Shown here: in pieces, positions 2,442 to 63,908 of the stretch | Position numbering within the stretch: the first letter of the stretch is position 1 | Layout of the letters: each line of letters starts with the position of its first letter | Origin: Fluviibacter phosphoraccumulans EoVTN8 | GTDB lineage: Bacteria > Pseudomonadota > Gammaproteobacteria > Burkholderiales > Rhodocyclaceae | Length of the DNA: 64,000 bases | Direction of reading: 5' to 3' | Assembly: GCA_036287865.1 (NCBI GenBank) | Contig: CP126743.1 | Location: 527,846-591,845, forward strand | Program-made: the position numbers and the translations under genes | The notes under the pieces: model-generated | Database searches by the model: none | The model's input: only the letters and a program-made list of their open reading frames with translations | Told to the model about the DNA's origin: nothing

Positions 2442-3025
2442 TCAGGTGATATCCCTCGTGGTTTCATGGGGGTGAGGCCGGTGCTGATTTCTAAGTAACA
2501 CAATAAGCGCGCCCTCGCCGCCATCAACTGGTTTTGCCTGACAGTAAGCTAGCACCTCACGGCGTTGCACCAGCCAGTTACGTGTGAGTGTTCTTAAAAC
2601 AGCTACTTGTCCCGGTGATCTCAAGCCTCGTCCTGTGACAACGCGTACGCACCGTTGTCCCTGAAGTAAACAGCGATTCAGAAACTTGGACAGTGCTTCA
2701 CGGGCAGCATCACGCGTATGGCCATGAAGATCAATTTCGTTCTGAATGACCCAGCGTCCGCGCCGGAGATCGCGCAATACCTGCATCGATACCACTCGGT
2801 GCAGATAGGTGGGCTCATCGCCCCCCTCCAGGCGGTCTGCTAATTGGATTGGCGCATGAATGAGCTCGTGCAAAACGGCTTGCTCATCCAGTTGCCGCTG
2901 TCGTGCCACAGGCCGTGGCAGTTTCGGCGTCAGATCCGCTTGAGGGCTTGCCTTGAGCGGAGATCCGCATCAGACACATGGGCAAGAAACAGGGCTTGTT
3001 CTTCCTCGGTCAATTTTGCCGGCAT
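2442..3025 (-). pseudogene. Smr/MutS2 C-terminal domain protein, probably frameshifted near 2960
   Basis: Smr motifs IDLHG, RVVTGRG and DGGEGALIVLL in 2442-2909. Likely N-terminus MPAKLTEEEQALFL (ATG 3025) is in another frame and stops near 2930. A truncated product from GTG 2909 cannot be excluded. Confidence 0.6.
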
Positions 3026-3054
3026 GTGGATGTACCGGTCTACAACCCGAAGTC

Positions 3055-4050
3055 TTAAGCGGTTGGCGCCCAGGCGCGCAACGCCACATCCAGGCCTTGT
3101 GCCAGACTATCGAGGAAGCGTTCTGCATCCAGCGCAGCCATGCAACCAGTACCGGCCGAGGTAATTGCCTGACGGTAATTGTGATCCTGTACATCACCCG
3201 CAGCGAAGACTCCCGGTACGCTGGTTGCGGTAGCAAAACCGTTATTGCCCATGCGGGTGATGAGGTAACCGTTTTCCATCTCAACCTGGCCTGCGAACAT
3301 ATCGGTATTGGGCTTGTGGCCAATCGCGATAAAGACGCCGCGCAGTTCTTTATCTTTGGTGCTGCCATCAGCAGCCTTGATGCGTACGCCGGTCACGCCA
3401 GTGTTGTCACCCAGCACTTCATCTAACGTGGAATTCAGTTCTAGCGCGATCTTGCCTTCTTCAATACGCTTGTAGAGTTTGTCGACCATGATCTTTTCAG
3501 CGCGGAACTTATCGCGACGATGAATCAGCGTCACTTTGCTGGCAATGTTGGCCAGGTAGAGCGCTTCTTCGACAGCGGTGTTGCCGCCGCCGACAACCGC
3601 AACCTCTTGATTGCGATAGAAAAATCCGTCGCAGGTGGCGCAGGCAGAAACGCCGCGGCCAGCGAATTTTTCTTCCGAAGGCAGACCCAGATACTGTGCC
3701 GAAGCCCCGGTGGCGATAATCAGCGCGTCACAGGTGTAGGTACCAGCATCACCCACCAGTTCGAAGGGGCGTTGACCCAGGCGAACCGTATGAATGTGAT
3801 CAAACACCATTTCAGTCTCAAAACGTGCTGCGTGCTGCTCGAAACGCGCCATAAGTTCTGGGCCCATCACGCCATTTACATCGGCCGGCCAGTTATCGAC
3901 TTCGGTCGTGGTCATCATCTGGCCGCCTTGTGCCAGGCCCGTAATAAGGACCGGTTTGAGGTTTGTGCGGGCCGCATAAATGGCCGAAGTGTAGCCGGCA
4001 GGCCCGGAACCGAGAATCAGCAGGGGGATATGGCGGGCGGTGGCAGACAT
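3055..4050 (-). CDS. trxB: Thioredoxin-disulfide reductase
   Basis: [36 protein letters not shown]. Confidence 0.97.
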
Positions 4051-4167
4051 AAAAGCTCCTGGAAGTGGTGCAACCCTCTTGAGGGATGGCCGAAAAATCG
4101 TTAACTACAGGGATTATAATCGTTCCTTACGTCATCACCAGCCTGATATAGAGCTTTCCATTTATTC

Positions 4168-6495
4168 ATGACTCGACTTTTCAGCCGATCCGTTACCCAG
4201 CGCATTGATGGCCCTTTGACGCTCCCGCAACGTATTAGAGCGTTGATGCAGGAAGCGCGCTGGGCTGTTCTGGGGTTTGTAGCGCTTGTCGCCGTGCTTG
4301 CCCTTTGGGGGTTTAACCCGGCAGATCCTGCCTGGTCGCATTCTGGCCCAGCGGGACGAGTCACTAATCCTATGGGCCGTTTTGGTGCCTGGATGGCCGA
4401 CTTGTTGTTTTATCTGTTTGGTGGAGCAGCCTGGCTTTGGGCGCTATTACCACTGGTACTTATTCTGATTGGTTGGTCAGAGCGTAAACGGGCACTGCGT
4501 GAAGCGGTGGAACCGGAAGTGCGCCCACTCTGGCTGACGATGGGTGGTTTTTTAGCGCTGCTGGTTTGCATGTCGACATTTGCAGCACTCCGTTTTCATA
4601 CGAGTGGTGCAACAATGCCAATGGGGCCAGGCGGCGTGGTGGGCAAAGGCCTTGCTACTGTTGTTGGACAAGCGTTCGGGTTTACCGGTGCTACCTTGAT
4701 TATGGCTTGCCTGTTGTTGTTGAGTTGGCGTGTATTTAGTGGTCTACCCTGGATGGTGCTTTTTGAGCGAACCGGCACATTGATGGAAGGCGCAGTTGTC
4801 GGCGGTGGTCGCGCAGTCGAGAGTTGGCAAGATCGTCGTATCGGCAAGGAAGTGGCGCAACAGCGCGAGGCCACCGTTGAGTTAAAACGTGCAGAGCCTA
4901 TGGAGCCGGTGTTTATTGAACCGGCAGCGCCTGTAGAAGTGCACGTATCCCGTAAAGCCGTGCAGCGCAAAGAGCGCGAGAAACAGGTGCCGCTGTTCCC
5001 TGAAGCAGTTGTCGGCGGCACTTTGCCACCGCTGAGCTTGCTGGATCCGGCGCAACCGCCGACCGACATGCCTACCGATGAGACGTTGCAGTTCACCTCA
5101 CGCTTGATAGAAACCCGTCTGGGTGATTTTGGCGTCGAAGTGAAAGTGATTGCTGCCTATCCGGGTCCCGTGGTCACTCGTTACGAAATCGAACCTGCAG
5201 TTGGCGTTAAAGGTGCGCAAATCGTAAACCTGGCTCGAGATCTGGCACGTGCGCTGGCATTGGTGTCCGTGCGCGTGGTTGAAACCGTGCCCGGTAAATC
5301 CTGCATGGCGTTGGAACTGCCGAACCCCAAAAGACAAACCGTACGATTGTCGGAAATCCTTTCTTCCCGCCCGTATCACAACATGGGTTCGCCACTCACG
5401 GTGGCATTGGGCAAAGACATTGGCGGCGTCTCTATCGTTGCCGATCTGGCCAAAATGCCGCACTTGCTGGTGGCCGGTACCACAGGCTCTGGCAAATCAG
5501 TGGGCGTGAACGCCATGATTCTGTCGATGCTCTATAAGGCTGAACCAGAATCCGTGCGATTGATCTTGGTTGACCCCAAGATGCTGGAGTTGTCGATTTA
5601 TGAAGGCATCCCGCACTTGTTGGCACCGGTAGTCACCGATATGCGTCAGGCCGCCAACGCGCTCACCTGGTGCGTGGCGGAAATGGAACGCCGCTATAAG
5701 ATCATGTCTAAACTGGGCGTGCGTAATCTGGCGAGTGCCAACGAACACATCAAAGCAGCGGCGGAGAAAGGCGAACCGATCCCTAATCCACTAACGCTCA
5801 CGCCAGAAGCGCCAGAGCCGCTACGTAGCATGCCGTACATTGTTGTGGTGATCGACGAATTGGCTGACCTGATGATGGTGGCCGGTAAGAAAGTAGAAGA
5901 GCTGATTGCCCGACTGGCGCAGAAGGCTCGCGCATCCGGCATACATTTGATTTTGGCAACCCAGCGACCAAGCGTGGATGTGATTACCGGTCTCATCAAA
6001 GCCAACATTCCGACGCGTATTGCCTTCCAGGTATCCAGCAAGATTGACTCGCGCACCATTCTTGATCAGATGGGCGCTGAAGCGCTGCTCGGCCAGGGTG
6101 ACATGTTGTACTTGCCGCCGGGTACCGGGTACCCGCAGCGGGTGCATGGCGCTTTTGTGGCCGATGAAGAAGTGCCTCGCGTCGTTGATTACCTCAAGTC
6201 GATGGGCGCCCCGGAATACGAAGAAGGCATTCTCACGGGTGCCACCGAAGGCGATGGAGAAGGCGGCGAGGGTGGCGACAATGATGCCGAAGCAGACCCG
6301 CTGTATGACCAAGCCGTTGAAATCGTCCTCAAGAATCGTCGTGCCTCCATCTCACTGGTGCAGCGTCATCTGCGGATTGGGTATAACCGCTCGGCACGTC
6401 TGATCGAAGCCATGGAAAAGGCAGGGTTGGTATCCAGCATGGATGGCCGTGGTGGTCGCGAAGTGTTAGCACCTAACCGTGCCGGTGACGAGTAA
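4168..6495 (+). CDS. ftsK: DNA translocase FtsK
   Basis: N-terminal TM region, Walker [21 protein letters not shown], gamma domain LQ-like [13 protein letters not shown]. Confidence 0.97.
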
Positions 6496-6499
6496 CCGC

Positions 6500-62814: not shown

Positions 62815-62822
62815 TTAATTGA

Positions 62823-62866
62823 GGTTTGTCCCGTAAAAGGCTTTTTTTGATTTTTACGGACAAACC
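62823..62866. repeat. Long imperfect inverted repeat
   Basis: GGTTTGTCCCGTAAAA (62823-62838) vs TTTTACGGACAAACC (62852-62866). Confidence 0.8.
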
Positions 62867-62891
62867 CGAGAGGATTTTCTTGACGTTGCGA

Positions 62892-62937
62892 TTGTTTTCA
62901 TTCAAATTTGCAAAATGTAATTTCTGAATGAAAACAA
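62892..62937. repeat. 13-bp perfect inverted repeat abutting the next start codon
   Basis: TTGTTTTCATTCA (62892) - 20 nt - TGAATGAAAACAA (62925), then ATG at 62938. Confidence 0.8.
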
Positions 62938-63908
62938 ATGGCCAGTGAACTATCGAACGATCAACGGAAATACTTGATTGATTCAGCCCAGATGTATGAG
63001 TCATACATCGAAGCCAAGCGGCATGCTGATAGTTATCGGTATGGGATTGACTTGGAAGCGCTCCCGCGACAAAGAGTATCTGTTTCGTCTATCGGGGCGA
63101 ACAGGTTATGGTCGCTCATTGGGTGTGCGCAGCCCGGAAACAGAACTGATAGAAGCAGAGTTTCGTGAAGGTAAGGCTCGTGCCAACACCCGTCTGGATG
63201 CTATTAAAAGCCGTCTTGATGAATTTGCCGTAATCAATAAGGCACTTCGTGCCTAATGTTGTGGCACGTATCCTACGTTTGCTTGATGAGCGAAACCTGT
63301 TGGGTCAGGAATTTATCGTTTTAGGTACACAGTGTCTTTATGCTTACGAGGCCGCAGCGGGGGTGCGTGTTGATCCATCTCTAACCACATCGGGCGATGT
63401 TGATTTGATGTTTGATACCCGCAGAAAGATCGAGCTGGTATCGCAAAAGTTAGATGGTTCAGGCTTGATCGGATTGTTGCGTAAAGTGGATAAATCGTTT
63501 GAACCGATGCAGCGTAGTAAGTTTCGGGCAGCAAACGATCAGGAGTTTATGGTCGATTTGATCATGCCACCTTTGGACATGCGAGATGGTCGCAAAATAC
63601 AATTTGCCGAAGGTGATCTCATCGCATCAGAAATTCCTGGCCTGGAATGGCTAATGAACGCGCCGAAATTTGAGGCGATCTGTATGGGTGAAGACGGCTG
63701 GCCAACACAATTTGTCGTGCCAGATCCGAGAGCATTTGCTATTCACAAAGCCTGGCTTTCAACCTGGCCGATGCGAGATCCGCTCAAGAAAACACGTGAT
63801 GCAGCACAAGGCGTAATGGTGCGTATGATCACCGAGAAATATTTTCCGCACTTATCTTTTGCGCCGAGTGCCATGAAATCTTTCCCCCAAGGAAAAATGC
63901 CAGAATGA
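62938..63908 (+). pseudogene. GSU2403-type nucleotidyltransferase-fold protein, two frameshifts
   Basis: TWKR..EYL, SLGVRSPETE, LGTQCLYAYE, TSGDVDL, VPDPRAFAIHKAWLS, RD..Q. Frameshifts near 63045 and 63248. Confidence 0.7.

What the first reader, a model, noticed from the sequence alone, without database searches (positions are those of the whole stretch)
2442..63908. Selective pseudogenisation: dispensable genes broken, core frames intact (early genome erosion)
Seen: about ten loci carry stops, frameshifts or deletions (Smr, transglutaminase, ATP-grasp/alpha-E, IS transposase, patatin, kup, MFS, DEAD-box homolog, acuI, GSU2403-type NTase), several with 2-5 lesions each. The long core ORFs (ftsK, acnB, nrdJ, rsx, leu/trp/pur, over 40 kb) have none. 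Known: this pattern marks recently host-restricted bacteria such as symbiotic Polynucleobacter necessarius or Sodalis-allied symbionts. Inference: this may be an undescribed, recently captured betaproteobacterial symbiont or a strongly bottlenecked lineage. Random sequencing indels would also hit the core genes.
Basis: partly seen in the sequence, partly recalled or inferred. Interest (0 to 1): 0.82.

Follow-up and report, generated by a model that had tools for sequence, protein, structure and literature searches.

The report
Recent genome-wide gene decay, freshwater betaproteobacterium
This small bacterial chromosome carries about 250 recently broken genes that its two sequenced relatives keep intact, the ordinary signature of a lineage that has just become confined to a host or partner organism.

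Summary
The window lies in a one-contig 1.67 Mb, 53% GC chromosome of a Rhodocyclaceae-like freshwater genus whose other 18 species genomes are 1.4-2.3 Mb. All ten named loci are damaged; Smr has only a 5' frameshift. Two small-ORF clusters nearby are intact toxin-antitoxin pairs.

- **Pseudogene load:** with a complete congener (G007) as query, 230 of 1176 genes (19.6%) carry internal stops or frameshifts in this genome. The reverse comparison gives 5.5%.
- **Timing:** with the sister species (G003, 94.6% nt identity) as query, 16.4% are broken here and 2.5% in G007. The decay therefore post-dates a recent split.
- **Not artefact:** independent contigs from two runs match 45.6 kb, covering nine of the ten loci, with no mismatch or gap.
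- **Not recoding:** in-frame stops use all three stop codons.
- **Relaxed selection:** intact genes show 3.5-fold more amino-acid changes than the sister at near-equal synonymous change, mostly GC>AT.
- **No mutator found:** the repair genes checked are intact.
- **Association:** the strain occurs only in runs labelled with one coded organism, including an independent RNA run. It occurs in no environmental metagenome.

Early reductive evolution is supported. Host restriction is likely but not shown. This is a known kind of system and probably a new instance.

The parts
2442..3050 (-). Smr-domain gene with a 5' frameshift. The Smr domain is intact in one frame (2451-2966); the first ~25-30 codons (MPAKLTEEEQALF...) lie in another frame.
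   Evidence: Six-frame reading. Pfam Smr 7.4e-25. The G007 189-aa ortholog aligns only from residue 20. Weakest of the ten; not checked against reads.
18454..19311 (-). Transglutaminase-like pseudogene with an in-frame stop inside the GVC*DFA active-site motif.
   Evidence: Pfam Bact_transglu_N and Transglut_core in one frame containing a stop. 96.9% identical to the intact 305-aa G003 ortholog, 1 stop. Contigs of 2 runs are identical.
19379..21171 (-). Circularly permuted ATP-grasp / alpha-E fusion pseudogene. The N-terminal 249 codons are missing and the IS copy abuts the truncated end. Two frameshifts, one stop.
   Evidence: CP_ATPgrasp_2 profile split over three frames, positions 1-126 absent. 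Three HSPs in frames -2/-3/-1 against the 847-aa G003 ortholog, 84-99% identity.
21171..21935 (+). 765-bp IS1595-family-like derivative with inverted ends GCTGTATTCAGAT. Its transposase frame has one TAA stop and one frameshift. One of 11 copies, all 100% identical.
   Evidence: About 10-fold contig depth (118-124 against 12-14). Copy list. Ends and flanks. No autonomous copy; absent from G007 and the sampled G003. No Pfam hit, so family assignment is by eye.
35047..36109 (+). Patatin-like phospholipase pseudogene: three stops and two frameshifts.
   Evidence: Pfam Patatin 1.2e-16 on a stop-containing frame. Intact 371-aa ORF in G003 (L001 5106-6221). tblastn in three frames.
36121..37986 (-). 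kup (K+ uptake) pseudogene. The body, N-terminus and K_trans_C domain lie in different frames, with one stop.
   Evidence: G007 631-aa ortholog aligns in several frames. K_trans_C found in a separate ORF.
43292..44353 (+). MFS_1_like transporter pseudogene with an in-frame stop at codon 109.
   Evidence: G003 399-aa ortholog, 85.7% identity, 1 stop. Pfam MFS_1_like 1.5e-104 on the ortholog.
59756..61631 (+). DEAD-box helicase homolog with a single frameshift at codon 360 (window 60832/60834).
   Evidence: Two HSPs in frames +2/+3 against the 652-aa G003 and 653-aa G007 orthologs. Pfam DEAD and Helicase_C. Contigs identical in 2 runs. RNA-run contigs cover it.
61854..62811 (+). acuI/YhdH-type zinc-dependent oxidoreductase pseudogene: stop at codon 121 and a frameshift near codon 293.
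   Evidence: tblastn against the 327-aa orthologs of G003 (95%) and G007 (91%). Pfam ADH_N and ADH_zinc_N.
62978..63908 (+). GSU2403-type nucleotidyltransferase (NTP_transf_8) pseudogene. The C-terminal domain is open; the N-terminal third is split over two other frames.
   Evidence: Six-frame reading. Pfam NTP_transf_8 1.1e-48. The gene is absent at this position in G003.
4168..6495 (+). ftsK, intact. Example of an undamaged core gene.
   Evidence: NCBIfam FtsK 1.8e-219. No lesion in the G007 comparison.
22468..33880 (.). rsx/rnf operon (-), neighbouring genes and acnB (+). All open.
   Evidence: RsxC 8.6e-205 and AcnB equivalog score 1476.6 bits. None appears in the broken list.
38869..41745 (-). 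nrdJ (B12-dependent ribonucleotide reductase), intact.
   Evidence: NCBIfam NrdJ_Z 4.1e-178.
44405..59679 (+). leuCDB-trp-folC-purF biosynthetic block. All frames open.
   Evidence: LeuC, LeuB, TrpB, FolC and PurF equivalogs. None appears in the broken list. Contigs identical.
34022..34620 (+). Phd/YefM antitoxin and ParE toxin pair, intact. Not part of the decay.
   Evidence: Pfam PhdYeFM_antitox 2.6e-9 and ParE_toxin 0.0015 (19.5 bits, below Pfam's 23-bit cut-off). The same pair is in G002 and absent in G003.

Best explanation
The window samples a chromosome in an early phase of reductive evolution.

Shown:
- After splitting from a sister species (94.6% nucleotide identity), this lineage inactivated roughly 250 genes, about one in six, by nonsense substitutions, small indels, truncations and insertions of one IS element.
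- Essential genes stayed open, and little DNA has yet been deleted.
- Genes that are still open accumulate amino-acid changes about 3.5 times faster than in the sister, at nearly the same synonymous rate. The excess is dominated by GC>AT transitions.

Inferred mechanism: a drop in effective population size and a simpler environment. Purifying selection can no longer remove slightly deleterious mutations or preserve genes that are no longer needed. Once a gene is dead it collects further lesions, which explains the 2-5 hits per locus.

Inferred cause (about 0.55): confinement to a host or obligate partner. The strain is seen only in sequencing runs labelled with one named organism, in two independent studies. 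The losses include biotin, NAD and molybdenum-cofactor synthesis, transporters, a pilus component and a competence protein.
For: - **Load against a congener:** G007 genes of at least 150 aa as queries give 230/1176 broken here (244 stops, 170 frameshifts, 111 genes with two or more lesions) plus 30 truncated. The reverse gives 64/1169.
- **Distribution:** about 250 loci covering 266 kb, spread evenly along the chromosome.
- **Load against the sister:** G003 queries give 47/287 broken here and 7/280 in G007. G003 itself gives 9/280.
- **Paralogs:** CP_ATPgrasp copies are intact in every congener that has the family and broken in all three copies here.
- **Reads:** zero mismatches and zero gaps over 45.6 kb in contigs of two runs.
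- **Indel type:** many are 10-23 bp deletions. Only about 8 of 31 single-base indels lie in runs of 5 or more.
- **Relative rate:** with G007 as outgroup, 213 genes and 75,427 codons, synonymous changes are 3059 vs 2685 and nonsynonymous 528 vs 143. pN/pS is 0.048 vs 0.015. Nonsynonymous GC>AT transitions are 283 vs 29.
- **Per gene:** 171 genes have more amino-acid changes here and 8 have fewer, p = 6e-41. GC3 is 57.0% against 58.0%.
- **IS element:** 11 identical copies, absent from the relatives.
- **Functions lost:**
- **Occurrence:** full match only in X1/X2 and 100%-identical contigs in RNA run X26 of the same organism label but another study. No environmental run holds more than 0.2 of the words.
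Against: - Host association is not demonstrated. The organism label is coded, three other runs with the same label lack the bacterium, and the sample also holds a few other bacteria.
- Genome size (1.67 Mb) is barely below the sister's estimate (1.4 Mb at 81% completeness).
- GC content has dropped only slightly.
- No repair gene loss was seen.
- No ATP/ADP translocase was found, but that search rang in no control genome, so it is uninformative.
- G003 is a co-assembled MAG. Its consensus may hide rare deleterious variants, which would inflate the nonsynonymous contrast somewhat.
- Gene calls are simple ORFs. The method has a 2.5-5.5% background of apparent breaks.
Confidence: 0.8

Rival explanations
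1. The lineage is free-living. Its effective population size fell for another reason, such as a small isolated habitat or a recent clonal expansion, or it specialised on a rich stable niche. The organism label on the runs reflects mere co-occurrence or a xenic culture.
For: Congeners are widespread in freshwater, river, groundwater and wastewater metagenomes. Sample S1 holds several other 16S types. Three runs with the same organism label lack the bacterium. No gene typical of intracellular life was found (uninformative).
Against: The exact strain is in no indexed environmental run. It is present at 100% identity in two studies of the same labelled organism. Loss of biotin, NAD and Moco synthesis fits dependence on a partner.
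Confidence: 0.2
2. Mutation accumulation by a hypermutator, or during long laboratory propagation of a culture. A raised mutation rate, rather than weak selection, produced the stops and frameshifts.
For: GC>AT transitions are strongly over-represented among new nonsynonymous changes (283 vs 29) and among single-step stops (103 of 128). The same strain recurs in two studies, as a shared laboratory culture would.
Against: MutS, MutL, MutM, UvrA/B/D, RecA, RecG, RadA, an Ogt-like ORF and both UDG-family genes are open. Synonymous change is only 1.14-fold higher than in the sister, so the overall rate is not much raised. Pseudogenes carry about 1.4% nonsynonymous-site divergence, far more than decades of culture would give at ordinary rates (inference).
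Confidence: 0.08
3. Sequencing or assembly error, for example long-read homopolymer indels or mis-polishing, created apparent lesions.
For: The one-contig assembly implies long reads were used. One IS copy sits at the contig end.
Against: Logan contigs of two runs reproduce 45.6 kb including nine of the ten window loci, with 0 mismatches and 0 gaps. RNA-run contigs from another study are identical. More than half the lesions are substitutions to stops. Most indels are not in homopolymers and many are 10-23 bp. Lesions cluster in few genes.
Confidence: 0.02
4. A changed genetic code or programmed recoding makes the in-frame stops readable, so the genes are not broken.
For: Many in-frame stops were seen; TAG is the commonest (93 of 234).
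Against: All three stop codons occur in frame (TAG 93, TGA 85, TAA 56). They replace Gln, Trp, Arg and other codons. They are accompanied by 170 frameshifts and by truncations. Core genes contain none.
Confidence: 0.01

Closest known systems
Polynucleobacter necessarius, symbiont of Euplotes, compared with free-living Polynucleobacter (Boscaro et al. 2013, as summarised in PMC4285135)
   Same: Both are betaproteobacteria from a freshwater genus whose free-living members already have small genomes. In both, one lineage has a slightly smaller chromosome (1.56 Mb there, 1.67 Mb here) and many recently inactivated genes, with a very close non-eroded relative. In both, the gene set is mostly a subset of the relative's.
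   Different: This is a different lineage: AcnB is about 79-81% identical to Polynucleobacter and 86% to Rhodocyclaceae. GC is 53% rather than about 45%. Host identity and intracellular location are not known here. The gene-count drop there is far larger (2088 to 1279), so this case looks earlier.
Sodalis glossinidius and Sodalis-allied or Symbiopectobacterium symbionts; Serratia symbiotica (recent insect symbionts)
   Same: Massive recent pseudogenisation with little deletion. Pseudogenes apparently still transcribed (RNA-run contigs; compare PMC7067036). IS activity. Relaxed selection.
   Different: Those start from 4-5 Mb genomes and reach up to about 50% pseudogenes with hundreds of IS copies. 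Here the ancestor was already about 2 Mb, the load is about 16-20%, and one IS has 11 copies.
'Ca. Accumulibacter symbioticus' in the ciliate Pseudoblepharisma chlorelligerum (PMC13310139)
   Same: A Rhodocyclaceae-related bacterium with a reduced genome, lower coding density and a raised pseudogene fraction relative to free-living congeners, living in a freshwater protist.
   Different: That symbiont is in the genus Accumulibacter. This genome belongs to a separate genus; no other genus of its GTDB family turned up among the 30 relatives the tool returned. That MAG is multi-contig. There is no evidence the two are the same organism.

Membership tests
Early-stage reductive genome evolution (recently host-restricted or bottlenecked bacterium) | Pseudogene fraction far above that of close relatives | tested here: met
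   16.4-19.6% of testable genes are broken here, against 2.5-5.5% in G007 and 3.2% in G003 by the same method.
Early-stage reductive genome evolution (recently host-restricted or bottlenecked bacterium) | Lesions are real, not sequencing or assembly errors | tested here: met
   0 mismatches and 0 gaps in contigs of two runs over window 18400-64000, nine of the ten loci. Identical RNA-run contigs. Indel spectrum.
Early-stage reductive genome evolution (recently host-restricted or bottlenecked bacterium) | Genome-wide relaxation of purifying selection on the lineage's own branch | tested here: met
   pN/pS is 0.048 against 0.015. Amino-acid changes are higher in 171 of 213 genes. Caveat: parsimony counts with a single outgroup, and the sister is a MAG consensus.
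Early-stage reductive genome evolution (recently host-restricted or bottlenecked bacterium) | Shift toward A+T through unmasked mutation bias | tested here: met
   The synonymous GC>AT to AT>GC ratio is 1.82 here and 1.38 in the sister. GC3 is 57.0% against 58.0%. The effect is small, as expected early on.
Early-stage reductive genome evolution (recently host-restricted or bottlenecked bacterium) | Proliferation of mobile elements | tested here: met
   One 765-bp IS derivative has 11 identical copies and is absent from the relatives. Copies abut truncated genes. This is modest next to Sodalis-type cases.
Early-stage reductive genome evolution (recently host-restricted or bottlenecked bacterium) | Loss of DNA repair or recombination genes | tested here: not met
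   MutS, MutL, MutM, UvrABD, RecA, RecG, RadA, an Ogt-like ORF and UDG-family genes are open. Names rest on sequence motifs recalled from memory. This feature is usually late, so failing it does not exclude the early stage.
Early-stage reductive genome evolution (recently host-restricted or bottlenecked bacterium) | Reduced genome size relative to relatives | tested here: inconclusive
   1.67 Mb is the smallest among the near-complete (>=90%) genomes of the genus, which range up to 2.3 Mb, but the sister is estimated at about 1.7 Mb. 92.4% of sampled sister DNA still has a counterpart.
Early-stage reductive genome evolution (recently host-restricted or bottlenecked bacterium) | Restriction to a host, ideally with vertical transmission | tested here: inconclusive
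   The strain is found only in runs labelled with one coded organism, in two studies. Three other runs with that label lack it. Localisation cannot be tested with these tools.
Stop-codon reassignment | In-frame stops confined to one stop codon, standing for one amino acid, and also present in core genes | tested here: not met
   TAG 93, TGA 85, TAA 56, replacing many different codons. None occurs in core genes.
Hypermutator lineage | Inactivated mismatch or base-excision repair and a raised synonymous rate | tested here: not met
   Repair genes are open. The synonymous rate is only 1.14-fold that of the sister.

The most novel reading that the evidence does not exclude
This may be a second, independent 'Polynucleobacter-type' natural experiment. 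One lineage of an already streamlined (about 2 Mb) free-living freshwater betaproteobacterial genus would have been captured very recently by a host. It is caught while about 250 genes are dead but not yet deleted. A 94.6%-identical non-eroded sister species lets each lesion be polarised. The lost genes include biotin, NAD and molybdenum-cofactor synthesis.
Probability: 0.4. Interest if true: 0.65.

Novelty: new member of a known kind. Interest (0 to 1): 0.5.

Why it matters
Very few systems show the first step of reductive evolution with a near-identical, non-eroded relative for comparison. Here nearly every lesion can be polarised against two congeners. That allows three questions to be asked directly: which functions go first when the starting genome is already streamlined, how fast lesions accumulate after inactivation, and how much of the AT drift is simply unmasked mutation bias.

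On the practical side, automated annotation of this genome will over-count genes and will predict pathways for biotin, NAD, Moco, glycolate and lactate use that are in fact broken.

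Tried and rejected
- **Naming the organism or host.** An exact-protein look-up found nothing. Seven literature searches (one further attempt was rejected on syntax) found related cases but not this genome. The freshwater-sponge metagenome table I read does not list it. Run labels are coded.
- **More of the sister genome.** The three-way tests therefore rest on 365 kb, about 21% of the genome.
- **ATP/ADP translocase as a marker of intracellular life.** No hit anywhere, controls included, so the result is uninformative.
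- **A co-resident congener.** A second 16S type in the sample looked 98.8% similar over part of the gene. It skips the variable region, and no congener contigs lie on 20 kb of the window at 80% likeness. It is another bacterium.
- **Pfam on the IS frames.** No hit. The IS1595-family assignment rests on motif resemblance seen by eye.
- **Mutator hypothesis.** Rejected on the repair genes checked.
- **Code-change hypothesis.** Rejected on the stop-codon spectrum.

Full report
**What the window is.** The 64-kb window is positions 527846-591845 of a one-contig 1,672,251-bp chromosome with 53.3% GC. AcnB is 99% identical to a MAG labelled 'uncultured Dechloromonas sp.' and about 86% identical to various Rhodocyclaceae. 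The genome search places it in a genus with 18 other species representatives of 1.4-2.3 Mb; no other genus of its family appeared among the 30 relatives returned. The closest is G003, 96% identical at acnB, 81% complete, and the same MAG as. G007 is a 2,295,374-bp near-closed genome, 90% identical at acnB.

**Check of the ten loci.** I used six-frame translation with stops masked, Pfam scans, and tblastn with intact orthologs from G003 and G007.
- The transglutaminase-like gene has an in-frame stop in its GVC*DFA motif.
- The ATP-grasp/alpha-E fusion lacks its first 249 codons, with the IS copy abutting the truncated end. It also has two frameshifts and a stop.
- Patatin has three stops and two frameshifts, whereas G003 has an open 371-codon gene.
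- kup is split over several frames.
- The MFS gene at 43292-44353 has one stop.
- The DEAD-box homolog has one frameshift at codon 360.
- The acuI-like gene has a stop and a frameshift.
- The NTP_transf_8 gene has its N-terminal third in two other frames.
- Smr is the weakest case. Only its first ~25-30 codons are out of frame.

Two clusters of short ORFs that look like debris are intact toxin-antitoxin pairs (Phd/ParE by Pfam; MazEF-like by eye), and a small Adhesin_E gene is also intact. FtsK, AcnB, NrdJ, RsxC, LeuC, LeuB, TrpB, FolC and PurF are open and score as their NCBIfam equivalogs or subfamilies.

**Are the lesions real?** Two runs of one sample (X1, X2) hold the window completely. 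Their independently built Logan contigs match window 18400-22500, 24400-44399 and 44001-64000 with no mismatch and no gap. Nine of the ten loci lie in these stretches; the Smr locus at 2442-3050 does not and was not checked against reads. Contigs of an RNA run from a different study (X26) are also identical, including over pseudogenes and the IS. Of the 72 frame-breaking indels in 32 genes aligned against G003, many are deletions of 10-23 bp. Only about 8 of the 31 single-base indels lie in homopolymers of 5 or more. More than half of all lesions are substitutions to stop codons. Error is therefore excluded for practical purposes.

**Is it genome-wide, and is it specific to this lineage?** I fetched the whole G007 chromosome and 365 kb of G003 and ran a symmetric screen. 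ORFs of at least 150 aa from one genome were searched by tblastn against the other. Stops and frame changes were counted only between 12% and 95% of the query length.
- G007 queries: 230 of 1176 genes are broken here (244 stops, 170 frameshifts, 111 genes with two or more lesions), and 30 more are truncated. The reverse gives 64 of 1169.
- The broken loci number about 250 and cover 266 kb. They are spread at 9.3 +/- 3.5 per 64 kb, so this window is typical.
- G003 queries (median protein identity 96.9%): 47 of 287 are broken here and 7 of 280 in G007. G003 itself gives 9 of 280 with G007 queries.
- All CP_ATPgrasp paralogs in every congener that has the family are stop-free, and all three copies here are damaged.

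The decay therefore arose on this lineage after it split from G003. The two genomes are 94.6% identical in nucleotides, and 92.4% of the sampled G003 DNA still has a counterpart here. Mean ORF length is 269 aa here against 308 in both relatives.

**Selectivity.** The 414 lesions fall in 230 genes. If placed at random by gene length they would hit 336 +/- 7 genes, with a minimum of 312 in 2000 trials. Broken genes are also more diverged (median 79.8% against 89.2% identity to G007). This is the pattern expected if a gene dies and then decays neutrally.

**Not recoding, not an obvious mutator.** In-frame stops use TAG 93, TGA 85 and TAA 56 times and replace many different codons. Of the 128 single-step cases, 103 are C>T or G>A. 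ORFs carrying MutS, MutL, MutM, UvrA, UvrB, UvrD/Rep, RecA, RecG, RadA and Ogt-type motifs are open (these names come from motifs recalled from memory). Both UDG-family genes are open as in the relatives.

**Relaxed selection in genes that are still open.** I used G007 as outgroup and 213 orthologs intact in all three genomes (75,427 codons).
- Single-step synonymous changes on the two sister branches are 3059 (here) and 2685 (G003).
- Nonsynonymous changes are 528 and 143.
- pN/pS is 0.048 against 0.015.
- Nonsynonymous GC>AT transitions are 283 against 29.
- The synonymous excess is likewise almost all C>T (1485 against 1170).
- Gene by gene, 171 have more amino-acid changes here and 8 have fewer (sign test p = 6e-41). 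GC3 is 57.0, 58.0 and 62.4% in this genome, G003 and G007.

In the 36 genes broken only here, nonsynonymous-site divergence is 0.0136 against 0.0012 in G003, with synonymous divergence of 0.14 on each branch. As a rough inference, the pseudogenes have been neutral for about a tenth of the time since the split. One caveat is that G003 is a co-assembled MAG, whose consensus may under-report rare deleterious variants. That could exaggerate the contrast but cannot produce the pseudogenes.

**What has been lost.** Pfam on the G003 orthologs of the genes broken only here gives the following. Gene names are my reading of the domain hits.
- Substrate use: glycolate-oxidase-type FAD and Fe-S subunits, a LutA-like CCG protein, a 3-hydroxyisobutyrate-type dehydrogenase, a nitroreductase, an AMP-binding enzyme.
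- Envelope and surface: RlpA-like, TonB, PilC (T2SSF), a ComF-like protein, cardiolipin synthase.
- Transport: a TAXI/NMT1-type binding protein and the MFS_1_like transporter at window 43292-44353; by eye only (no Pfam run), further MFS, DMT and YeeE-type transporters.
- RNA and proteins: an RNB exoribonuclease, HflX, an M17 peptidase.
- Cofactors: biotin synthase, L-aspartate oxidase (NAD), MoaC-Mog, MoeA and MoeB (molybdenum cofactor).
- Other: a phosphofructokinase and cyanophycin synthetase.

All 20 tRNA specificities remain, with 44 genes. gatA has only a frameshift near its 3' end.

**Mobile element.** The 'IS transposase' is a 765-bp element with perfect inverted ends. It is present in 11 copies that are 100% identical; two are truncated and one lies at the contig end. 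It has about 10-fold contig depth and is absent from G007 and the sampled G003. No autonomous copy exists in the genome, and its transposase frame has a TAA stop and a frameshift in every copy. Copies abut the truncated ends of two ATP-grasp genes, sit next to the decayed molybdenum-cofactor cluster, and interrupt a tRNA-like sequence.

**Where it lives.**
- Runs X1 and X2 carry the name of an organism (coded 'organism A'), not a metagenome label. They hold about 118 Mb of contigs.
- Outside an amplicon-like pile-up on 16S positions ~313-1200, only about five 16S types are present.
- RNA run X26 has the same organism label but a different study and year. It contains this bacterium's 16S and mRNA-region contigs at 100% identity, and it shares a second, unrelated 16S type with X1.
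- Three other runs with the label lack the bacterium.
- No environmental run holds more than 0.2 of the sampled words, whereas about 95%-identical relatives appear in many freshwater, river, groundwater and wastewater metagenomes.

This fits a strain confined to a host or stable partner culture, but it does not prove it.

**Verdict.** The phenomenon is well known from Polynucleobacter necessarius (PMC4285135), Sodalis (PMC7067036) and a Rhodocyclaceae ciliate symbiont (PMC13310139). This is most likely a new instance. Its value is the very close intact sister genome and the already streamlined starting point.

Noticed in passing
window 21171-21935; also G000 C1:124859, 356082, 505001, 610756, 1087190, 1156932, 1344499, 1368330, 1531910, 1671489: A 765-bp IS1595-family-like element occurs in 11 copies that are 100% identical. 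Every copy has the same stop and frameshift in the transposase frame, and there is no autonomous copy in the genome. How a seemingly dead element reached 11 identical copies is unexplained. One copy ends the contig, so circular closure runs through a repeat.
   Followed up: partly
G000 C1:1156932 (left flank GCGGCAGTAGCTCAGCTGGT): A truncated IS copy (482 bp) is inserted directly after what looks like the 5' half of a tRNA gene. The same junction appears as a loose end in RNA run X26.
   Followed up: no
L226 1941 and 2344-2348 versus L227 (G000 C1:424601-426140 and 843193-844732): The two 16S rRNA copies differ at 6 positions, including a 5-nt block (TTTCC against ACATA). The second copy scores lower against Rfam SSU (1565.6 against 1576.5 bits).
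   Followed up: no
run X1 laid on L226:1813-2700: 16S positions ~313-1200 show depths of 1e4-5e5 from more than 3000 short contigs of many taxa. The flanks of the gene show only about five 16S types. This looks like amplicon carry-over into the shotgun run.
   Followed up: no
runs X1 and X26 laid on L226:1513-1839: A second bacterial 16S type is present in both the DNA sample (depth ~42) and the independent RNA sample (depth ~325). It matches only the conserved parts and skips the V1-V2 region. The two samples therefore share at least two bacteria.
   Followed up: partly
window 59756-61631 and the G003 ortholog (C10:18364-20322): The unusual helicase motifs of the DEAD-box homolog (APAGSGKA, DEVD, ARLNRVLN) are also present in the intact G003 ortholog. 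They are a trait of the gene family in this genus and not part of this genome's decay. Only the frameshift is new.
   Followed up: partly
G000 C1:98704-100117: The amidase-family gene that looks like gatA has a frameshift at about codon 460 of 523. If the tail matters, an essential tRNA-amidation enzyme is affected.
   Followed up: no
G000 C1:1345254-1350999: A whole molybdenum-cofactor cluster (MoaC-Mog, MoeA, MoeB-rhodanese), a neighbouring phosphofructokinase, and upstream YeeE-type and dienelactone-hydrolase-like genes (named by eye) are broken or truncated. An IS copy sits at the edge (1344499-1345261).
   Followed up: partly
window 34022-34620 and 38086-38780: Two toxin-antitoxin pairs (Phd/ParE by Pfam; MazEF-like by eye) are intact amid decaying neighbours. 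The Phd/ParE pair is present in G002 and absent at this site in G003.
   Followed up: partly
whole genome: CTAG occurs 1.16 times per kb (O/E 0.83) here, against 0.96 (0.75) in G003 and 0.90 (0.71) in G007. This is a mild rise, consistent with new C>T changes and relaxed avoidance.
   Followed up: partly
window 28309: One low-depth contig of RNA run X26 carries an extra T relative to the genome. It may be an error or a polymorphism.
   Followed up: no
G000 C1:353942-356848 and 608616-611522: A 2.9-kb segment that includes an IS copy is duplicated at 100% identity, and several IS copies share identical flanks. This suggests IS-associated duplication or rearrangement.
   Followed up: no
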